From the IMG/VR virus record IMGVR_UViG_3300018483_000013: a stretch of DNA of 5,626 bases, one strand, 5' to 3'. The notes under the pieces were generated by a model. That model saw nothing but the letters and a program-made list of their open reading frames with translations. It did no database searches and had not been told where the DNA came from. Numbering within the stretch: the first letter of the stretch is position 1; each line of letters opens with the position of its first letter. The stretch is from a virus (lineage: Duplodnaviria; Heunggongvirae; Uroviricota; Caudoviricetes). Below, one piece after another: positions 1-5,626 of this stretch. Made by a program: the position numbers and the translations under genes.

Positions 1-51
1 GCATACGAGATGCCTAAGTGACTGGAGTTCAGACGTGTGCTCTTCCGATCT
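1..51. other. Illumina TruSeq indexed (P7-side) adapter, reverse-complement orientation: GCATACGAGAT + 6-nt index GCCTAA + GTGACTGGAGTTCAGACGTGTGCTCTTCCGATCT. Not biological sequence.
   Basis: Positions 1-51 match the known TruSeq index adapter/PCR primer 2 region directly. The 6-mer GCCTAA is the reverse complement of TTAGGC, which I recall as a TruSeq index. The same adapter appears in inverted orientation at the other end of the window. Confidence 0.95.
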
Positions 52-973
52 GGTACAGATAGTCTATGACTGGCTGGATGCACTGAAAGATCCCAACGGC
101 CTGAAAACCTTTGTGAACACCACGCTGGGCGAGACCTACGAAGAGGCCGTGGGCGAAAAACTCGATCACCAGGTACTGATGGATAAGGTTGTGCGTTACA
201 CGGCGGCGGTGCCTGCCCGGGTGGTTTATCTGACGGCCGGCATTGACTCGCAGCGAAACCGTTTTGAGATGTATGTCTGGGGATGGGCTCCGGGAGAGGA
301 AGCCTTTCTGGTGGATAAAATCATCATTATGGGGCGTCCCGATGAGGAAGAGACGCTGTTACGTGTGGATGCGGCGATCAACAAAAAATACCGCCATGCA
401 GACGGAACCGAAATGACCATTTCCCGTGTCTGCTGGGACATCGGGGGGATCGATGGCGAAATCGTTTATCAGAGGTCAAAAAAACACGGTGTTTTCCGGG
501 TGCTGCCGGTAAAAGGCGCATCTGTCTATGGCAAGCCGGTGATCACCATGCCAAAAACCCGCAATCAGCGGGGCGTGTATCTGTGTGAAGTGGGGACGGA
601 CACCGCAAAAGAAATTCTCTATGCCCGTATGAGAGCCGATCCCACGCCTGCGGATGAAGCCACGTCGTATGCCATCCGTTTTCCTGATGATCCGGAGATT
701 TTTTCGCAGACAGAGGCGCAGCAACTGGTGGCGGAAGAGCTTGTGGAGAAGTGGGAAAAAGGAAAGATGCGTCTGCTGTGGGATAACAAAAAGCGGCGTA
801 ACGAAGCGCTGGACTGCCTGGTGTATGCCTACGCGGCATTACGTGTGTCCGTGCAACGTTGGCAGCTTGATCTGGCTGTACTGGCAAAATCCCGGGAAGA
901 AGAGACGACCCGGCCAACCCTTAAAGAACTGGCAGCGAAGCTGTCCGGAGGAGTGAATGGTTACAGTCGCTGA
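52..973 (+). CDS. A: Terminase large subunit (lambda gpA-like), C-terminal fragment; 5' end truncated by the contig/adapter boundary. First complete genomic codon starts at 53; stop TGA at 971-973.
   Basis: The ORF 35-973 translation closely resembles my recollection of the lambda gpA C-terminal half (e.g. WGWAPGEEAFLVDKIIIMGRPDEEETLLRVDAAINKKY, SKKHGVFRVLPVKGASVYGKP, VYLCEVGTDTAKE, WDNKKRRNEALDCLVYAYAALR). The first residues MCSSDL are translated from adapter bases 35-51 and are not real. Position in the gene order (upstream of W, B, C, D, E) fits. Confidence 0.92.
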
Positions 974-1163
974 ACTGCAGGCGCTGCGTCAGGCGCGCCT
1001 TGATTTATTAACCGGTAAACGGGTGGTGTCTGTCCAGAAAGATGGTCGCAGAATTGAATATACGGCGGCTTCTCTGGATGAGCTTAACCGGGCGATCAAT
1101 GATGCGGAGTCGGTACTGGGGACAACCCGACGTCGCCGTCGTCCGCTGGGAGTGAGGTTATGA
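957..1163 (+). CDS. W: Head completion / head-tail joining protein (lambda gpW-like), 68 aa
   Basis: 68 aa, the same length as lambda gpW, with a conserved core LTGKRVVSVQKDGRRIEYTAASLDEL (lambda, as I recall it, has [24 protein letters not shown]). The ATG at 957 is preceded by GGAGGAG (about 945-951) and overlaps the end of the terminase gene by 17 nt. Confidence 0.9.
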   Translation: MVTVAELQALRQARLDLLTGKRVVSVQKDGRRIEYTAASLDELNRAINDAESVLGTTRRRRRPLGVRL

Positions 1164-2752
1164 AACGAACGCCTGTCCTGATTGATGTGAACGGTGTTCC
1201 GCTTCGTGAGAGTCTCAGCTACAACGGGGGCGGCGCAGGATTTGGCGGGCAAATGGCGGAGTGGTTGCCACCGGCGCAGAGTGCCGATGCGGCCCTGCTG
1301 CCCGCGTTGCGTCTGGGGAATGCCCGGGCAGATGATCTGGTGCGCAATAACGGAATAGCGGCTAATGCGGTTGCCCTGCATAAGGATCACATTGTCGGGC
1401 ATATGTTTCTGATCAGCTACCGTCCGAACTGGCGCTGGCTGGGGATGCGGGAGACCGCAGCAAAAAGCTTTGTCGATGAGGTGGAGGCGGCCTGGTCGGA
1501 ATACGCCGAAGGGATGTTTGGCGAGATCGACGTGGAAGGAAAACGCACGTTCACGGAATTTATCCGTGAAGGTGTGGGCGTTCATGCGTTTAACGGCGAA
1601 ATCTTTGTGCAGCCGGTCTGGGATACGGAAACCACGCAGTTATTCCGTACGCGTTTTAAAGCTGTGAGTCCGAAACGGGTGGACACGCCTGGACACGGTA
1701 TGGGGAACCGTTTTCTGCGGGCCGGTGTGGAGGTCGATCGATATGGCCGTGCCGTCGCGTACCATATCTGTGAGGATGATTTTCCGTTCTCTGGTAGTGG
1801 ACGATGGGAACGGATCCCGCGTGAACTTCCCACCGGGCGTCCGGCCATGCTGCATATTTTCGAGCCGGTGGAGGACGGGCAGACCCGTGGGGCTAATCAG
1901 TTTTACAGCGTCATGGAACGGCTGAAGATGCTCGATTCCCTGCAGGCAACACAGCTTCAGTCGGCCATAGTGAAGGCGATGTATGCAGCGACGATTGAAA
2001 GTGAACTTGATACCGAAAAGGCCTTTGAATATATCGCCGGCGCGCCACAGGAGCAGAAGGATAATCCGCTTATTAATATTCTGGAGAAGTTCTCCAGCTG
2101 GTATGACACGAATAACGTGACACTGGGCGGAGTCAAAATTCCGCACCTTTTCCCTGGTGATGATCTGAAACTACAGACTGCGCAGGATTCAGACAATGGA
2201 TTTTCTGCACTTGAACAGGCGCTGCTGCGGTATATCGCCGCCGGTCTTGGCGTTTCCTACGAACAGTTGTCCCGTGATTACTCGAAGGTCAGTTACTCAA
2301 GTGCCCGCGCCTCCGCCAATGAGTCGTGGCGCTATTTTATGGGGCGGCGAAAATTTATTGCGGCCCGGCTGGCCACGCAGATGTTTTCCTGCTGGCTGGA
2401 AGAGGCACTTCTTCGGGGGATTATTCGTCCGCCACGGGCACGTTTTGATTTTTATCAGGCGCGATCAGCCTGGTCACGGGCAGAGTGGATTGGTGCCGGA
2501 AGAATGGCCATTGACGGGCTCAAGGAAGTCCAGGAATCAGTGATGCGCATTGAGGCCGGACTGAGCACGTATGAGAAAGAGCTGGCGCTGATGGGCGAGG
2601 ATTATCAGGACATTTTCCGCCAGCAGGTCAGGGAATCTGCTGAGCGGCAAAAAGCCGGACTCTCACGTCCGGTGTGGATAGCGCAGGCGTATCAGCAGCA
2701 GATAGCGGAGAGTCGCAGGCCGGAAGAGGAGACAACACCACGTGAGACGTAA
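1160..2752 (+). CDS. B: Portal protein (lambda gpB-like), 530 aa
   Basis: Long stretches match recalled lambda gpB motifs: GNARADDLVRNNG, HAFNGEIFVQPVWDT, FEPVEDGQTRGAN, LQSAIVKAMYAATIESELDT, LRYIAAGLGVSYEQLSR, ARASANESW-YFMGRRKF, WIGAGRMAIDGLKEVQESVM-IEAGLSTYEKE. Length is 530 aa versus about 533 in lambda. The start ATG overlaps the W stop (ATGA at 1160-1163) and is preceded by GGGAGTGAGG. Confidence 0.96.
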   Translation: MKRTPVLIDVNGVPLRESLSYNGGGAGFGGQMAEWLPPAQSADAALLPALRLGNARADDLVRNNGIAANAVALHKDHIVGHMFLISYRPNWRWLGMRETAAKSFVDEVEAAWSEYAEGMFGEIDVEGKRTFTEFIREGVGVHAFNGEIFVQPVWDTETTQLFRTRFKAVSPKRVDTPGHGMGNRFLRAGVEVDRYGRAVAYHICEDDFPFSGSGRWERIPRELPTGRPAMLHIFEPVEDGQTRGANQFYSVMERLKMLDSLQATQLQSAIVKAMYAATIESELDTEKAFEYIAGAPQEQKDNPLINILEKFSSWYDTNNVTLGGVKIPHLFPGDDLKLQTAQDSDNGFSALEQALLRYIAAGLGVSYEQLSRDYSKVSYSSARASANESWRYFMGRRKFIAARLATQMFSCWLEEALLRGIIRPPRARFDFYQARSAWSRAEWIGAGRMAIDGLKEVQESVMRIEAGLSTYEKELALMGEDYQDIFRQQVRESAERQKAGLSRPVWIAQAYQQQIAESRRPEEETTPRET

Positions 2753-4247
2753 TCTTTCACACATTATTGCCGCAGCATTCAATGAACCGCTGCTTCTGGA
2801 GCCCGCCTATGCGCGGGTTTTCTTTTGCGCGCTCGGGCGCGAGATGGGGGCAGCAAGTCTTTCGGTACCACAACAACAGGTACAGCTTGATGCTCCCGGA
2901 ATGCTGGCTGAAACGGACGAGTATATGGCCGGAGGTAAACGACCGGCCCGTGTTTACCGGGTGGTGAACGGTATTGCTGTACTGCCGGTGACCGGCACGC
3001 TGGTGCACCGGCTGGGTGGTATGCGGCCATTTTCCGGAATGACAGGCTATGACGGCATTGTCGCCTGTCTTCAGCAGGCAATGGCGGATAGCCAGGTGCG
3101 GGGCGTACTGCTGGACATTGACAGTCCGGGCGGGCAGGCCGCCGGCGCGTTTGACTGCGCTGACATGATTTACCGCCTCCGTCAGCAGAAGCCGGTCTGG
3201 GCACTGTGCAATGACACGGCCTGTTCTGCAGCCATGCTGCTGGCGTCGGCCTGCTCCCGACGGCTGGTTACCCAGACATCCCGTATCGGCTCCATTGGCG
3301 TGATGATGAGCCATGTCAGCTATGCCGGTCATCTGGCGCAGGCCGGTGTGGATATCACGCTGATTTACTCAGGGGCGCACAAGGTGGATGGCAATCAGTT
3401 TGAAGCGTTGCCGGCAGAGGTTCGCCAGGACATGCAGCAGCGGATTGATGCGGCGCGCCGGATGTTTGCCGAAAAAGTGGCGATGTATACCGGTCTGTCT
3501 GTTGATGCCGTCACGGGAACAGAGGCTGCCGTTTTTGAAGGTCAGTCCGGCATTGAGGCCGGGCTGGCGGATGAATTAATCAATGCGTCGGATGCCATCA
3601 GTGTGATGGCCACGGCGCTGAACAGTAATGTCAGAGGAGGCACTATGCCGCAATTAACTGCAACGGAAGCCGCCGCGCAGGAGAACCAGCGAGTGATGGG
3701 GATCCTGACATGCCAGGAAGCGAAAGGACGTGAACAGCTTGCCACGATGCTGGCAGGACAACAGGGCATGAGCGTTGAACAGGCCCGGGCGATTCTGGCC
3801 GCGGCGGCACCGCAGCAGCCGGTGGCATCCACGCAGAGTGAAGCCGATCGCATTATGGCGTGTGAAGAAGCGAACGGTCGTGAACAACTGGCGGCAACGC
3901 TGGCGGCGATGCCGGAGATGACGGTGGAAAAAGCCCGCCCGATCCTGGCTGCTTCACCGCAGGCGGATGCCGGACCATCACTCCGTGATCAGATCATGGC
4001 ACTGGATGAGGCAAAAGGGGCTGAGGCGCAGGCTGAACAGCTGGCTGCCTGCCCGGGAATGACAGTGGAGAGCGCCCGGGCTGTGCTGGCTGCGGGATCA
4101 GGTAAGGCAGAACCGGTCTCTGCATCCACAACCGCCATGTTTGAACATTTCATGGCGAACCATTCACCGGCAGCGGTACAGGGTGGCGTGGCACAGACGT
4201 CAGCAGACGGTGATGCGGACGTGAAAATGCTCATGGCCATGCCATGA
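2742..4247 (+). CDS. C: Prohead protease / minor capsid protein C (lambda gpC-like, peptidase S49/ClpP-fold family), 501 aa, GTG start
   Basis: The N-terminal two thirds align with recalled lambda gpC (NEPLLLEPAYARVFFCAL, VNGIAVLPVTGTLV, MTGYDGIV, GAFDCADMI, KPVWAL-ND-ACSAA-LLASA-SRRLVTQT, GSIGVMM-H, ITLIYSG-HKVDGN, EAAV--GQ--I-AGLADEL). The putative catalytic Ser is residue 162 (TCT at 3225-3227). GTG at 2742 is the first start codon after an in-frame TAG at 2703-2705; a GAGGAG motif lies about 10 nt upstream; the gene overlaps the portal stop by 11 nt. Confidence 0.93.
   Translation: MRRNLSHIIAAAFNEPLLLEPAYARVFFCALGREMGAASLSVPQQQVQLDAPGMLAETDEYMAGGKRPARVYRVVNGIAVLPVTGTLVHRLGGMRPFSGMTGYDGIVACLQQAMADSQVRGVLLDIDSPGGQAAGAFDCADMIYRLRQQKPVWALCNDTACSAAMLLASACSRRLVTQTSRIGSIGVMMSHVSYAGHLAQAGVDITLIYSGAHKVDGNQFEALPAEVRQDMQQRIDAARRMFAEKVAMYTGLSVDAVTGTEAAVFEGQSGIEAGLADELINASDAISVMATALNSNVRGGTMPQLTATEAAAQENQRVMGILTCQEAKGREQLATMLAGQQGMSVEQARAILAAAAPQQPVASTQSEADRIMACEEANGREQLAATLAAMPEMTVEKARPILAASPQADAGPSLRDQIMALDEAKGAEAQAEQLAACPGMTVESARAVLAAGSGKAEPVSASTTAMFEHFMANHSPAAVQGGVAQTSADGDADVKMLMAMP
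3645..4247 (+). CDS. Nu3: Nested in-frame scaffolding protein (lambda Nu3-like), sharing frame and stop with the protease gene; about 200 aa
   Basis: An internal ATG at 3645 is in the protease frame ((3645-2742)/3 = 301) and is immediately preceded by a strong Shine-Dalgarno AGAGGAGG (3633-3640). In lambda, Nu3 is translated from an internal start inside C in the same frame. The downstream sequence is Ala/Gln/Glu-rich and helix-like, typical of scaffold proteins. The exact start needs experimental confirmation. Confidence 0.7.
   Translation: MPQLTATEAAAQENQRVMGILTCQEAKGREQLATMLAGQQGMSVEQARAILAAAAPQQPVASTQSEADRIMACEEANGREQLAATLAAMPEMTVEKARPILAASPQADAGPSLRDQIMALDEAKGAEAQAEQLAACPGMTVESARAVLAAGSGKAEPVSASTTAMFEHFMANHSPAAVQGGVAQTSADGDADVKMLMAMP
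3690..4094 (+). repeat. Three tandem, diverged copies of a ~40-45 aa motif (R-[VI]-M-x-[IL]-x-x-x-E-A-x-G-x-E-Q-L-A-x-x-L-A-x-x-P-x-M-[ST]-V-E-x-A-R-x-[IV]-L-A-A) inside the C/Nu3 coding region
   Basis: Protein-level repeats read from the translation: RVMGILTCQEAKGREQLATMLAGQQGMSVEQARAILAAA (3690-3803), RIMACEEANGREQLAATLAAMPEMTVEKARPILAAS (3849-3953), and RDQIMALDEAKGAEAQAEQLAACPGMTVESARAVLAAG (3984-4094). The copies are diverged at the nucleotide level, so this is an old duplication, not an assembly artefact. Confidence 0.75.
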
Positions 4248-4283
4248 AGTCAGTGCTGACCATCAATAGGAGGTTTTTACAAT

Positions 4284-4631
4284 ATGGTGACGAAAACCAT
4301 CACTGAACAGCGTGCGGAAGTACGTATTTTTGCCGGTAATGATCCGGCTCATACCGCCACAGGCAGCAGCGGGATTTCCTCGCCAACACCGGCACTGACG
4401 CCCCTGATGCTGGATGAAGCCACCGGGAAACTGGTGGTCTGGGACGGACAGAAAGCCGGTAGTGCGGTTGGCATACTGGTACTGCCGCTTGACGGCACAG
4501 AGACGGCGCTGACGTATTACAAGTCGGGAACCTTTGCGACGGAGGCAATCCACTGGCCTGAAAGTGTGGATGAACACAAAAAGGCCAACGCCTTTGCCGG
4601 CAGTGCCCTGAGTCACGCGGCGCTGCCGTAA
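4284..4631 (+). CDS. D: Head decoration protein (lambda gpD-like), 115 aa
   Basis: Matches recalled lambda gpD motifs: NDPAHTAT, TPLMLD, KLVVWDG, AVGIL, YYKSGTF, FAGSA (lambda is about 110 aa). AGGAGG at 4268-4273 lies 10 nt upstream of the ATG at 4284. Stop TAA at 4629-4631. Confidence 0.93.
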   Translation: MVTKTITEQRAEVRIFAGNDPAHTATGSSGISSPTPALTPLMLDEATGKLVVWDGQKAGSAVGILVLPLDGTETALTYYKSGTFATEAIHWPESVDEHKKANAFAGSALSHAALP

Positions 4632-4640
4632 CACGTTATC

Positions 4641-4658
4641 AGGCCACCGCGGTGGCCT
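4641..4658. promoter_or_regulatory. Perfect 18-bp palindrome AGGCCACCGCGGTGGCCT in the D-E intergenic region; candidate RNA hairpin (partial terminator/attenuator or mRNA-stability element) or protein-binding site
   Basis: Seen directly: AGGCCACCG is the exact reverse complement of CGGTGGCCT. It sits 10 nt after the D stop and 31 nt before the E start, and is followed by GACTGATTTCTG, which is T-containing but not a clean U-tract. Function is inferred. Confidence 0.4.
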
Positions 4659-4688
4659 GACTGATTTCTGAATGAAAGGAACTGATTT

Positions 4689-5602
4689 ATGGGATTGTTT
4701 ACGACCCGCCAGTTACTCGGTTATACCGAACAAAAAGTGAAATTTCGTTCGCTGTTTCTGGAGCTGTTTTTCCGCCGTACGGTGAATTTCCATACCGAAG
4801 AGGTGATGCTGGACAAAATTACCGGAAAAACGCCGGTGGCGGCCTATGTCTCCCCGGTTGTTGAAGGAAAAGTGCTGCGTCATCGTGGTGGTGAAACCCG
4901 CGTGTTGCGTCCGGGCTACGTCAAGCCGAAACACGAATTTAATTACCAGCAGGCGGTTGAGCGCCTTCCTGGTGAAGATCCATCTCAACTGAACGATCCG
5001 GCTTACCGCCGTCTGCGTATCATTACCGATAACCTCAAACAGGAAGAGCACGCGATTGTCCAGGTGGAAGAAATGCAGGCGGTAAATGCTGTGTTGTATG
5101 GCAAATACACCATGGAAGGAGACCAGTTCGAGAAAATTGAGGTCGATTTTGGCAGGTCGACGAAGAATAACATCACACAGGGTAGCGGTAAGGAATGGTC
5201 AAAACAGGATCGTGACACTTTCGATCCTACACATGATATTGATCTTTACTGCGACCAGGCCAGCGGTCTTGTGAATATTGCCATCATGGACGGTACCGTT
5301 TGGCGTCTGCTGAATGGTTTTAAGCTGTTTCGCGAAAAACTGGATACCCGTCGCGGTTCAAATTCACAACTCGAAACGGCAGTGAAAGATCTGGGCGCAG
5401 TGGTGTCCTTCAAGGGGTATTACGGCGATCTGGCTATTGTTGTGGCGAAAACGTCTTATATAGCAGAAGACGGTATCGAAAAACGTTATCTTCCAGATGG
5501 CATGCTGGTCCTGGGGAATACTGCTGCAGATGGGATCCGTTGTTACGGAGCCATTCAGGATGCGCAGGCGTTGTCCGAAGGTGTGGTGGCTTCTTCCCGT
5601 TA
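4689..5602 (+). CDS. E: Major capsid protein (lambda gpE-like), N-terminal ~304 codons; 3' end truncated by the contig/adapter boundary (lambda gpE is about 341 aa)
   Basis: Strong similarity to recalled lambda gpE: PGYVKPKHE, DPAYRR-RII, AIVQVEEMQAVNAVL-GKYTM, NNITQ, EWSK-D, KEKLDTRRGSNS-LETAVKDLG, YGD-AIVV, LPDGMLVLGNT, YG-IQDA. The AAGGA Shine-Dalgarno lies about 8 nt upstream of the ATG at 4689. The apparent stop TAA at 5601-5603 is formed by genomic TA plus the first adapter base, so it is not the real stop. Confidence 0.93.
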
Positions 5603-5626
5603 AGATCGGAAGAGCACACGTCTGAA
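5603..5626. other. Illumina TruSeq adapter read-through sequence AGATCGGAAGAGCACACGTCTGAA (start of the index-adapter trimming sequence). Not biological sequence.
   Basis: Exact match to the first 24 nt of the standard TruSeq read-1 3' adapter (AGATCGGAAGAGCACACGTCTGAACTCCAGTCAC). It mirrors the adapter at positions 1-51. Confidence 0.95.

What the first reader, a model, noticed from the sequence alone, without database searches (positions are those of the whole stretch)
5603..5626. Right end is the same TruSeq adapter in inverted orientation; the major capsid gene stop codon is an artefact
AGATCGGAAGAGCACACGTCTGAA starts at 5603. The TAA at 5601-5603 that ends the capsid ORF is genomic TA plus adapter A. 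Lambda gpE continues about 37 residues further, so the real gene is truncated here. The final ORF-track entry on the minus strand (5434-5619, also starting MCSSDL) is the same adapter read on the other strand. The same P7-side adapter at both ends means the contig was extended with untrimmed read-through reads; the phage sequence between them looks intact.
Basis: partly seen in the sequence, partly recalled or inferred. Interest (0 to 1): 0.5.

Follow-up and report, generated by a model that had tools for sequence, protein, structure and literature searches.

The report
Sequencing adapter falsely truncates capsid gene
The last 24 bases of this contig are left-over Illumina TruSeq sequencing adapter, not phage DNA, so the stop codon that seems to end the major capsid gene is an assembly artefact and the real gene runs 38 codons further.

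Summary
The finding is correct, and what it describes is an artefact. Window 5603-5626 (AGATCGGAAGAGCACACGTCTGAA) is exactly "A" plus the first 23 nt of the TruSeq index adapter. Window 1-51 is the reverse complement of the same adapter, running on through index TTAGGC (TruSeq index 3) into the P7 flow-cell sequence. The two ends form a perfect 24-nt inverted repeat.

Everything between, 52-5602, is a gap-free copy of the head-gene block of phage 21-type lambdoid phages. It is 99.1% identical to phage 21 and 99.8% to E. coli prophages. Every listed database match begins at base 52 and/or ends at base 5602, wherever the query reached that far.

At the right junction the relatives read TAT (Tyr305) and continue for 38 residues to a 342-aa capsid protein. 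The window reads TA+A = TAA. Pfam Phage_cap_E is covered only to position 288 of 329 in the window protein, but to 329 in phage 21.

The minus-strand ORF 5434-5619 and the start of ORF 35-973 are also made by adapter bases.

38 residues are missing, not about 37. The junction "A" comes from A-tailing, not from the adapter oligo. The read-through mechanism is inferred, because the reads are not available.

There is no biological novelty. The practical value is that the ends should be trimmed and both end genes marked partial.

The parts
1..51 (-). Left-end adapter. It is the reverse complement of A + TruSeq index adapter (GATCGGAAGAGCACACGTCTGAACTCCAGTCAC) + index TTAGGC (index 3) + ATCTCGTATGC, the start of the P7 flow-cell sequence. 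It is not phage DNA.
   Evidence: Exact string match. No homology to phage 21 upstream of base 52. The same sequence with other indices sits at the ends of unrelated phage records.
35..52 (+). Artefactual start of ORF 35-973. The GTG and the next four codons lie inside the adapter, and a sixth codon is a hybrid (CT from the adapter, G from the genome). They happen to be in frame with the terminase large-subunit gene.
   Evidence: Translation VCSSDLVQIV. Window base 52 corresponds to the third base of terminase codon 336 of 642 in phage 21.
52..5602 (+). Genuine phage DNA: the head-gene block of a phage 21-type lambdoid (pro)phage. It holds the terminase large subunit C-terminal 306 codons (53-973), a W-like head completion protein (957-1163), portal (1160-2752), C protease/scaffold (2742-4247), decoration protein D (4284-4631) and a 3'-partial major capsid gene (4689-5602).
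   Evidence: Gap-free match over 5551/5551 bases, 99.08% identical to phage 21 OL657228.1 at 1716-7266. 99.8% identical to prophages in E. coli JCKP02 and others. All gene lengths equal those of phage 21.
4689..5600 (+). Major capsid protein gene (lambda gpE / phage 21 gene 7 family), codons 1-304 of 342. It is incomplete at the 3' end.
   Evidence: 99% identical to the phage 21 and prophage proteins over 304 aa, and those continue with YPKHWLTVGDPAREFTMTQSAPLMVLPDPDEFVVVQVK. Pfam PF03864 matched at 1-288/329.
5601..5603 (+). Artefactual stop codon TAA. It is the genomic TA of a Tyr305 TAT codon plus the A that precedes the adapter.
   Evidence: Relatives read TAT here; the window reads TAA.
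5603..5626 (+). Right-end adapter: the A-tail base plus the first 23 nt of the TruSeq index adapter (the Read-1 read-through sequence).
   Evidence: Exact prefix match. Perfect inverted repeat of 28-51. All listed database matches that reach the right end stop at 5602.
5434..5619 (-). Spurious 61-aa ORF antisense to the capsid gene. Its GTG start (5619-5617) lies in the adapter.
   Evidence: VCSSDLNGKKPP....

Best explanation
The window is a short-read assembly contig whose two tips are untrimmed Illumina TruSeq index (P7-side) adapter. At each tip, a read from an insert shorter than the read length ran off the end of the phage fragment, through the A-tail base and into the adapter, and the assembler used that read to extend the contig. 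The contig then stopped inside the adapter. This happened on the + strand at the right end (24 nt of adapter) and on the - strand at the left end (51 nt, reaching the sample index TTAGGC and the P7 sequence), which produces a terminal inverted repeat. At the right end the genomic TA of a TAT (Tyr305) codon is followed by the A-tail A, giving a false TAA. That false stop makes the phage 21-type major capsid gene look complete at 304 aa, when the real protein has 342 aa. Shown here: the adapter identity, the exact junctions, the true continuation in relatives, and the intact interior. Inferred: that read-through reads, rather than some other route, brought the adapter in.
For: The adapter match is exact at both ends, including a valid TruSeq index on the left. 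The sequence is named as the TruSeq adapter in published cutadapt commands and appears in 996 papers (also 18). The 24-nt terminal inverted repeat is perfect and is the only one found, and there are no internal adapter copies. The chance expectation is about 4e-11.

Every listed match of the window to phages and E. coli genomes begins at 52 and/or ends at 5602, wherever the query reached that far. Relatives continue TAT CCG AAA CAC TGG..., and the window shows no similarity to them after 5602. The same is true upstream of 52. A 215-bp query across the junction, taken from the closest prophage in the right-end search, is matched over at least 80% of its length in 1454 E. coli genomes.

Capsid proteins of relatives are 342 aa and solved lambda gpE is 341 aa. 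The Pfam profile is truncated at 288/329 in the window protein.

The same adapter with other indices lies at or near the ends of 19 deposited phage records. Their hosts are as unrelated as Bacillus, Staphylococcus, Caulobacter and Mycobacterium, and one record is the RNA phage MS2, so the sequence is synthetic and not genomic.
Against: Nothing in the sequence speaks against this explanation. The limits are as follows. No reads or coverage data are available, so the read-through step is inferred. The reference adapter and index sequences used come from my own knowledge of Illumina's adapter list; the literature hits corroborate the 33-34-nt core but not the index table. The source contig could not be found in the viral, metagenome or genome collections. 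That the window is a whole contig is therefore inferred from both ends being adapter.
Confidence: 0.97

Rival explanations
1. The TAA is a genuine premature stop (a nonsense mutation or a naturally short capsid gene) and the following bases are real genome.
For: The only support is that an ORF finder closes the ORF at 5603.
Against: A T-to-A point mutation would leave the downstream bases homologous to relatives. Instead all similarity stops at 5602, and the next 24 bases are an exact adapter prefix. No listed match among the E. coli genomes or phages extends past 5602.
Confidence: 0.005
2. The 24-nt inverted repeat at the two ends is a biological terminal inverted repeat, such as a transposon or insertion element boundary, or a phi29-like linear-genome ITR.
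For: There is a perfect 24-nt inverted repeat exactly at the termini.
Against: The repeat is the TruSeq adapter. On the left it continues into a sample index and the P7 flow-cell sequence. The enclosed DNA is an internal, colinear slice of lambdoid head genes that cuts two genes in mid-codon. In relatives the same positions are flanked by ordinary phage sequence.
Confidence: 0.003
3. The adapters mark internal chimeric joins, where adapter-mediated mis-assembly links unrelated fragments in a longer contig, and the window happens to have been cut inside them. They would then not be contig tips.
For: The window cannot show what lies beyond base 1 or 5626. Internal adapter copies do occur in deposited records, for example in Caulobacter phage Ccr29 at 150 kb and Escherichia phage WPEC3 at 295 kb.
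Against: Both window ends fall inside adapter, in the outward-facing orientation expected of tips. A window cut at random from a larger contig would have to hit two adapters by coincidence. The consequence for the capsid gene is the same either way.
Confidence: 0.02
4. The contig ends are real physical DNA ends that recur in the sample, such as a defined cleavage product or sub-genomic fragment. Every fragment would then end there and carry adapter, as happens at the termini of linear phage genomes.
For: Adapters at the ends of deposited linear phage genomes (phi29-like Bacillus and Staphylococcus phages) show that fixed physical ends do get assembled into adapter.
Against: The junctions (GTTCACCACCTG|GGTACAGATTGT and CTCTTCCCGTTA|TCCGAAACACTG) share no motif. 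They are not at cos, which lies 1.7 kb upstream of the left junction in phage 21. Both lie inside genes. Random shearing combined with low coverage explains them without any extra assumption.
Confidence: 0.01

Closest known systems
Illumina TruSeq index (P7-side) adapter read-through contamination of assembled contigs
   Same: The sequence is exact, with a preceding A-tail base. It lies at the terminus in outward orientation. It continues into a 6-nt index and P7 on the left end. Homology to relatives is lost exactly at the junction. The same pattern occurs in deposited phage records of unrelated hosts.
   Different: Nothing differs. This is a textbook case.
Phage 21 gene 7 / lambda gpE major capsid protein (Pfam PF03864 Phage_cap_E, HK97-like fold; PDB 7vi9)
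   Same: The window protein is 99% identical to the phage 21 capsid protein over residues 1-304. It has the same gene neighbourhood: terminase, W, portal, C/Nu3, D, E.
   Different: The window copy lacks the last 38 residues (YPKHWLTV...VVVQVK) only because the contig ends. This is not a biological difference.
Adapter remnants in public phage records, e.g. Staphylococcus phage Andhra KY442063.1 / NC_047813.1
   Same: The same adapter, with index ACAGTG, sits at the record end directly abutting phage DNA.
   Different: In Andhra the adapter sits at a true genome terminus and overlaps an annotated repeat_region. In the window the junctions are internal to the phage genome.

Membership tests
TruSeq adapter read-through artefact | Exact identity to the adapter sequence AGATCGGAAGAGCACACGTCTGAACTCCAGTCAC... 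| tested here: met
   24/24 at 5603-5626 and 51/51 (reverse complement) at 1-51. The sequence is named as the TruSeq adapter in PMC11156918.
TruSeq adapter read-through artefact | The adapter is followed by a valid sample index and the P7 flow-cell sequence | tested here: met
   The left end carries TTAGGC (TruSeq index 3, from my own knowledge of the index list) followed by ATCTCGTATGC. The right end is too short to reach the index.
TruSeq adapter read-through artefact | Lies at a contig terminus with the adapter 5' end abutting the insert | tested here: met
   Both copies touch the window ends and face outward. There are no internal copies.
TruSeq adapter read-through artefact | Homology to related genomes stops exactly at the junction | tested here: met
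   All listed phage and E. coli matches begin at 52 and/or end at 5602. The alignments show no similarity beyond the junctions.
TruSeq adapter read-through artefact | The sequence occurs in unrelated organisms' records, so it is synthetic in origin | tested here: met
   19 phage records from Bacillus, Staphylococcus, Salmonella, Klebsiella, Caulobacter, Mycobacterium, Vibrio and MS2, mostly within about 100 nt of a record end.
TruSeq adapter read-through artefact | Read-level support: tip built from few short-insert reads, with a coverage drop at the tip | not testable with these tools
   No reads are available, and the source contig was not found.
Phage_cap_E (lambda gpE-like) major capsid protein | Pfam PF03864 match above the gathering score | tested here: met
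   178.7 bits against a cut-off of 22.9.
Phage_cap_E (lambda gpE-like) major capsid protein | Full-length domain (profile positions 1-329; about 341-342 aa) | tested here: not met
   Only profile positions 1-288 are present, and 38 C-terminal residues are missing. The gene is a 3'-partial copy, not a short family member.
Biological terminal inverted repeat (mobile element or ITR) | The repeat is of genomic origin and is conserved at the same place in relatives | tested here: not met
   Relatives have ordinary terminase and capsid coding sequence at both junctions. The repeat is the adapter.

The most novel reading that the evidence does not exclude
The two junctions (52 and 5602) could be recurrent physical DNA ends in the sample, for example a defined sub-genomic fragment of a lambdoid prophage produced by specific cleavage. 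That would explain why adapter was assembled onto both ends. Nothing in the sequence supports this: the junctions share no motif, they are not at cos, and both lie within genes.
Probability: 0.01. Interest if true: 0.3.

Novelty: not a real feature. Interest (0 to 1): 0.04.

Why it matters
The value is in data hygiene only. If the ends are left untrimmed, the contig yields four errors. The first is a capsid protein that looks complete but is 38 residues short. The second is a terminase fragment with a false MCSSDL N-terminus. The third is at least one spurious antisense ORF. The fourth is a false terminal inverted repeat that could be mistaken for a mobile-element or genome-end signature. One search shows that such remnants do persist in deposited phage genomes. 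In one case (Andhra) the remnant sits under an annotated repeat region. Bases 1-51 and 5603-5626 should be trimmed, and both end genes should be marked partial.

Tried and rejected
I looked for the source contig by its exact right-junction 28-mer in viral contigs, metagenome contigs and genome contigs. There were no matches.

I looked up the 304-aa truncated protein as an exact product in the assembly collection. It is not on record, so there is no sign that this particular artefact protein has spread into that collection.

I searched for internal adapter copies that would point to chimeric joins inside the contig. None were found with up to 2 mismatches.

I considered a real nonsense mutation, a biological terminal inverted repeat and a defined physical end. 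All were rejected on the junction alignments and the adapter identity.

I ran no further search on this finding. The DNA-level evidence was already decisive.

Full report
**Observation.** The last 24 bases of the window, 5603-5626, read AGATCGGAAGAGCACACGTCTGAA. A string comparison shows this is an exact prefix of "A" + GATCGGAAGAGCACACGTCTGAACTCCAGTCAC, the TruSeq index adapter. The reference sequence comes from my own knowledge of Illumina's adapter list. The literature corroborates it: the 33-mer occurs in 996 papers, and PMC11156918 names it as "TruSeq adapter sequences" in a cutadapt command (see also the library description in PMC9387291). The triplet at 5601-5603 is TAA and closes ORF 4689-5603, 304 aa.

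The left end of the window, 1-51, is the exact reverse complement of A + adapter + TTAGGC + ATCTCGTATGC. That is the adapter continuing through TruSeq index 3 into the P7 flow-cell sequence. Bases 28-51 and 5603-5626 form a perfect 24-nt inverted repeat, the only inverted repeat of 16 nt or more in the window. The adapter core occurs nowhere else, even when two mismatches are allowed. The chance expectation for an exact 24-mer is about 4e-11. ORF 5434-5619 on the minus strand and ORF 35-973 on the plus strand both begin GTG TGC TCT TCC GAT CT- inside adapter.

**What lies between the adapters.** Bases 52-5602 match Escherichia phage 21 (OL657228.1, 1716-7266) as one gap-free block of 5551 = 5551 bases. 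There are 51 mismatches, which is 99.08% identity. The same bases match prophages of E. coli JCKP02, 1504D004 and M114 at 99.8%. The annotated phage 21 genes under the match are:
- terminase large subunit
- proximal head completion protein (W-like)
- portal
- capsid protease/scaffold (C/Nu3-like)
- decoration protein (D-like)
- major capsid protein

Every complete gene in the window has the same length as in phage 21. Each differs from it by 1-3 amino acids and none has an internal stop.

**The junctions.** Every listed match begins at query base 52 and/or ends at 5602, wherever the query reached that far. At the right junction, phage 21 and the E. coli 06-00048 prophage both read ...TCT TCC CGT TAT CCG AAA CAC TGG CTG.... 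The window reads ...TCT TCC CGT TA|A GAT CGG AAG... and shows no similarity after 5602. The real codon 305 is therefore TAT (Tyr). The TAA is genomic TA plus the A that precedes the adapter.

By TruSeq chemistry (my own knowledge), that A is the 3' A-tail added to the insert. The adapter oligo itself begins with GATCGG. This is a small refinement of "adapter A".

Relatives continue with YPKHWLTVGDPAREFTMTQSAPLMVLPDPDEFVVVQVK, 38 residues, to give a 342-aa protein. A 215-bp query spanning the junction, taken from the closest prophage in the right-end search, is matched over at least 80% of its length in 1454 complete E. coli genomes. None of the listed genomes matching the window's last 427 bases extends past 5602.

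At profile level, Pfam Phage_cap_E (PF03864) is matched at positions 1-288 of 329 in the window protein. In phage 21 it is matched at 1-329. The solved lambda gpE chain (7vi9, 341 aa) aligns with the phage 21 protein to within one residue of its C-terminus.

At the left junction, phage 21 reads ...CACCACCTG|GGTACAGAT and the window reads ...TCCGATCT|GGTACAGAT. Window base 52 is the third base of terminase codon 336 of 642. The adapter GTG at 35 is in frame by chance, giving a false six-residue N-terminus on a 306-residue genuine C-terminal fragment.

**Independent sign that the end sequence is synthetic.** I used window 1-51 as a query against 50,697 deposited phage records. It hits 19 records whose hosts include Bacillus, Staphylococcus, Salmonella, Klebsiella, Caulobacter, Mycobacterium, Paenibacillus and Vibrio, and one record is the RNA phage MS2. 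Most hits lie within about 100 nt of a record end. In the one record I read directly (Andhra), the differences from the window fall in the 6-nt index. No genomic element has that distribution.

**Mechanism.** The best explanation is read-through contamination, which I hold at about 0.97. Reads from inserts shorter than the read length ran past the fragment end, through the A-tail base and into the P7-side adapter. They were not trimmed, and the assembler used them to extend both contig tips.

One tip was extended by a + strand read (24 nt of adapter). The other was extended by a - strand read (51 nt of adapter). Read 1 always reads into the P7-side adapter, so two Read-1-type tips on opposite strands necessarily give an inverted repeat. 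This needs no special explanation and is compatible with single-end or paired-end data.

The identity, the junctions and the true continuation are shown. The read-through route itself is inferred, because no reads are available and the source contig could not be located.

**Rivals.**
- A genuine nonsense mutation is excluded, because the downstream sequence is not homologous to relatives at all.
- A biological terminal inverted repeat is excluded, because the repeat is the adapter, it continues into an index and P7, and it encloses an arbitrary slice of head genes that cuts two genes in mid-codon.
- Internal chimeric joins in a longer contig cannot be formally excluded from the window alone. 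They are improbable, since both window ends fall inside outward-facing adapter, and they would not change the conclusion about the capsid gene.
- Recurrent physical ends have no support. The two junction contexts share no motif and are not at cos.

**Comparison with what is known, and verdict.** This is a textbook adapter artefact on a contig from a very common phage 21-type lambdoid (pro)phage. About a third of complete E. coli genomes carry a close relative of this block. Three minor corrections apply: 38 residues are missing, not about 37; the junction A is the A-tail; and the mechanism is inferred. There is nothing biologically novel, so interest is low. The practical action is to trim 1-51 and 5603-5626 and to annotate the terminase and capsid genes as partial.

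Noticed in passing
window 1-51 and ORF 35-973: The left end carries 51 nt of the same adapter, including sample index TTAGGC (TruSeq index 3) and 11 nt of the P7 sequence. The adapter's GTG at 35 is in frame by chance with terminase large-subunit codon 336, giving the 312-aa ORF a false MCSSDL N-terminus. The genuine part is the C-terminal 306 residues of a 642-aa protein.
   Followed up: yes
window 5497-5625 (+): A 42-aa out-of-frame ORF inside the capsid gene ends on a TGA (5623-5625) that lies within the right-end adapter. It is another ORF-track entry shaped by adapter bases.
   Followed up: partly
L003 1-54 (Staphylococcus phage Andhra KY442063.1, record 18493-18546; also RefSeq NC_047813.1): The deposited genome ends with TruSeq adapter (ACGGCATACGAGAT-CACTGT-GTGACTGGAGTTCAGACGTGTGCTCTTCCGATCT; index ACAGTG). 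The record's annotated repeat_region (18380-18534) overlaps 42 nt of it. The adapter matches two places in the record, so part of the annotated terminal repeat may be adapter.
   Followed up: partly
phage collection hits H31-H49: 19 deposited phage records from unrelated hosts contain this adapter. Most copies lie within about 100 nt of a record end. A few are internal: Caulobacter phage Ccr29 at about 150.5 kb, Mycolicibacterium phage Kashi_SSH1 at about 141.7 kb, Escherichia phage WPEC3 at about 295.3 kb under a gene annotated 'Sir2', and Stenotrophomonas phage Bhz63 under a 'hypothetical protein'. The internal copies may mark chimeric joins or permuted assemblies.
   Followed up: no
window 2742-4247: The C-like protease/scaffold gene is 501 aa, as in phage 21. 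In phage 21 a nested in-frame scaffolding (Nu3-like) gene is annotated in its 3' part (L001 5309-5911, which corresponds to window 3645-4247). This is ordinary for this phage group.
   Followed up: no
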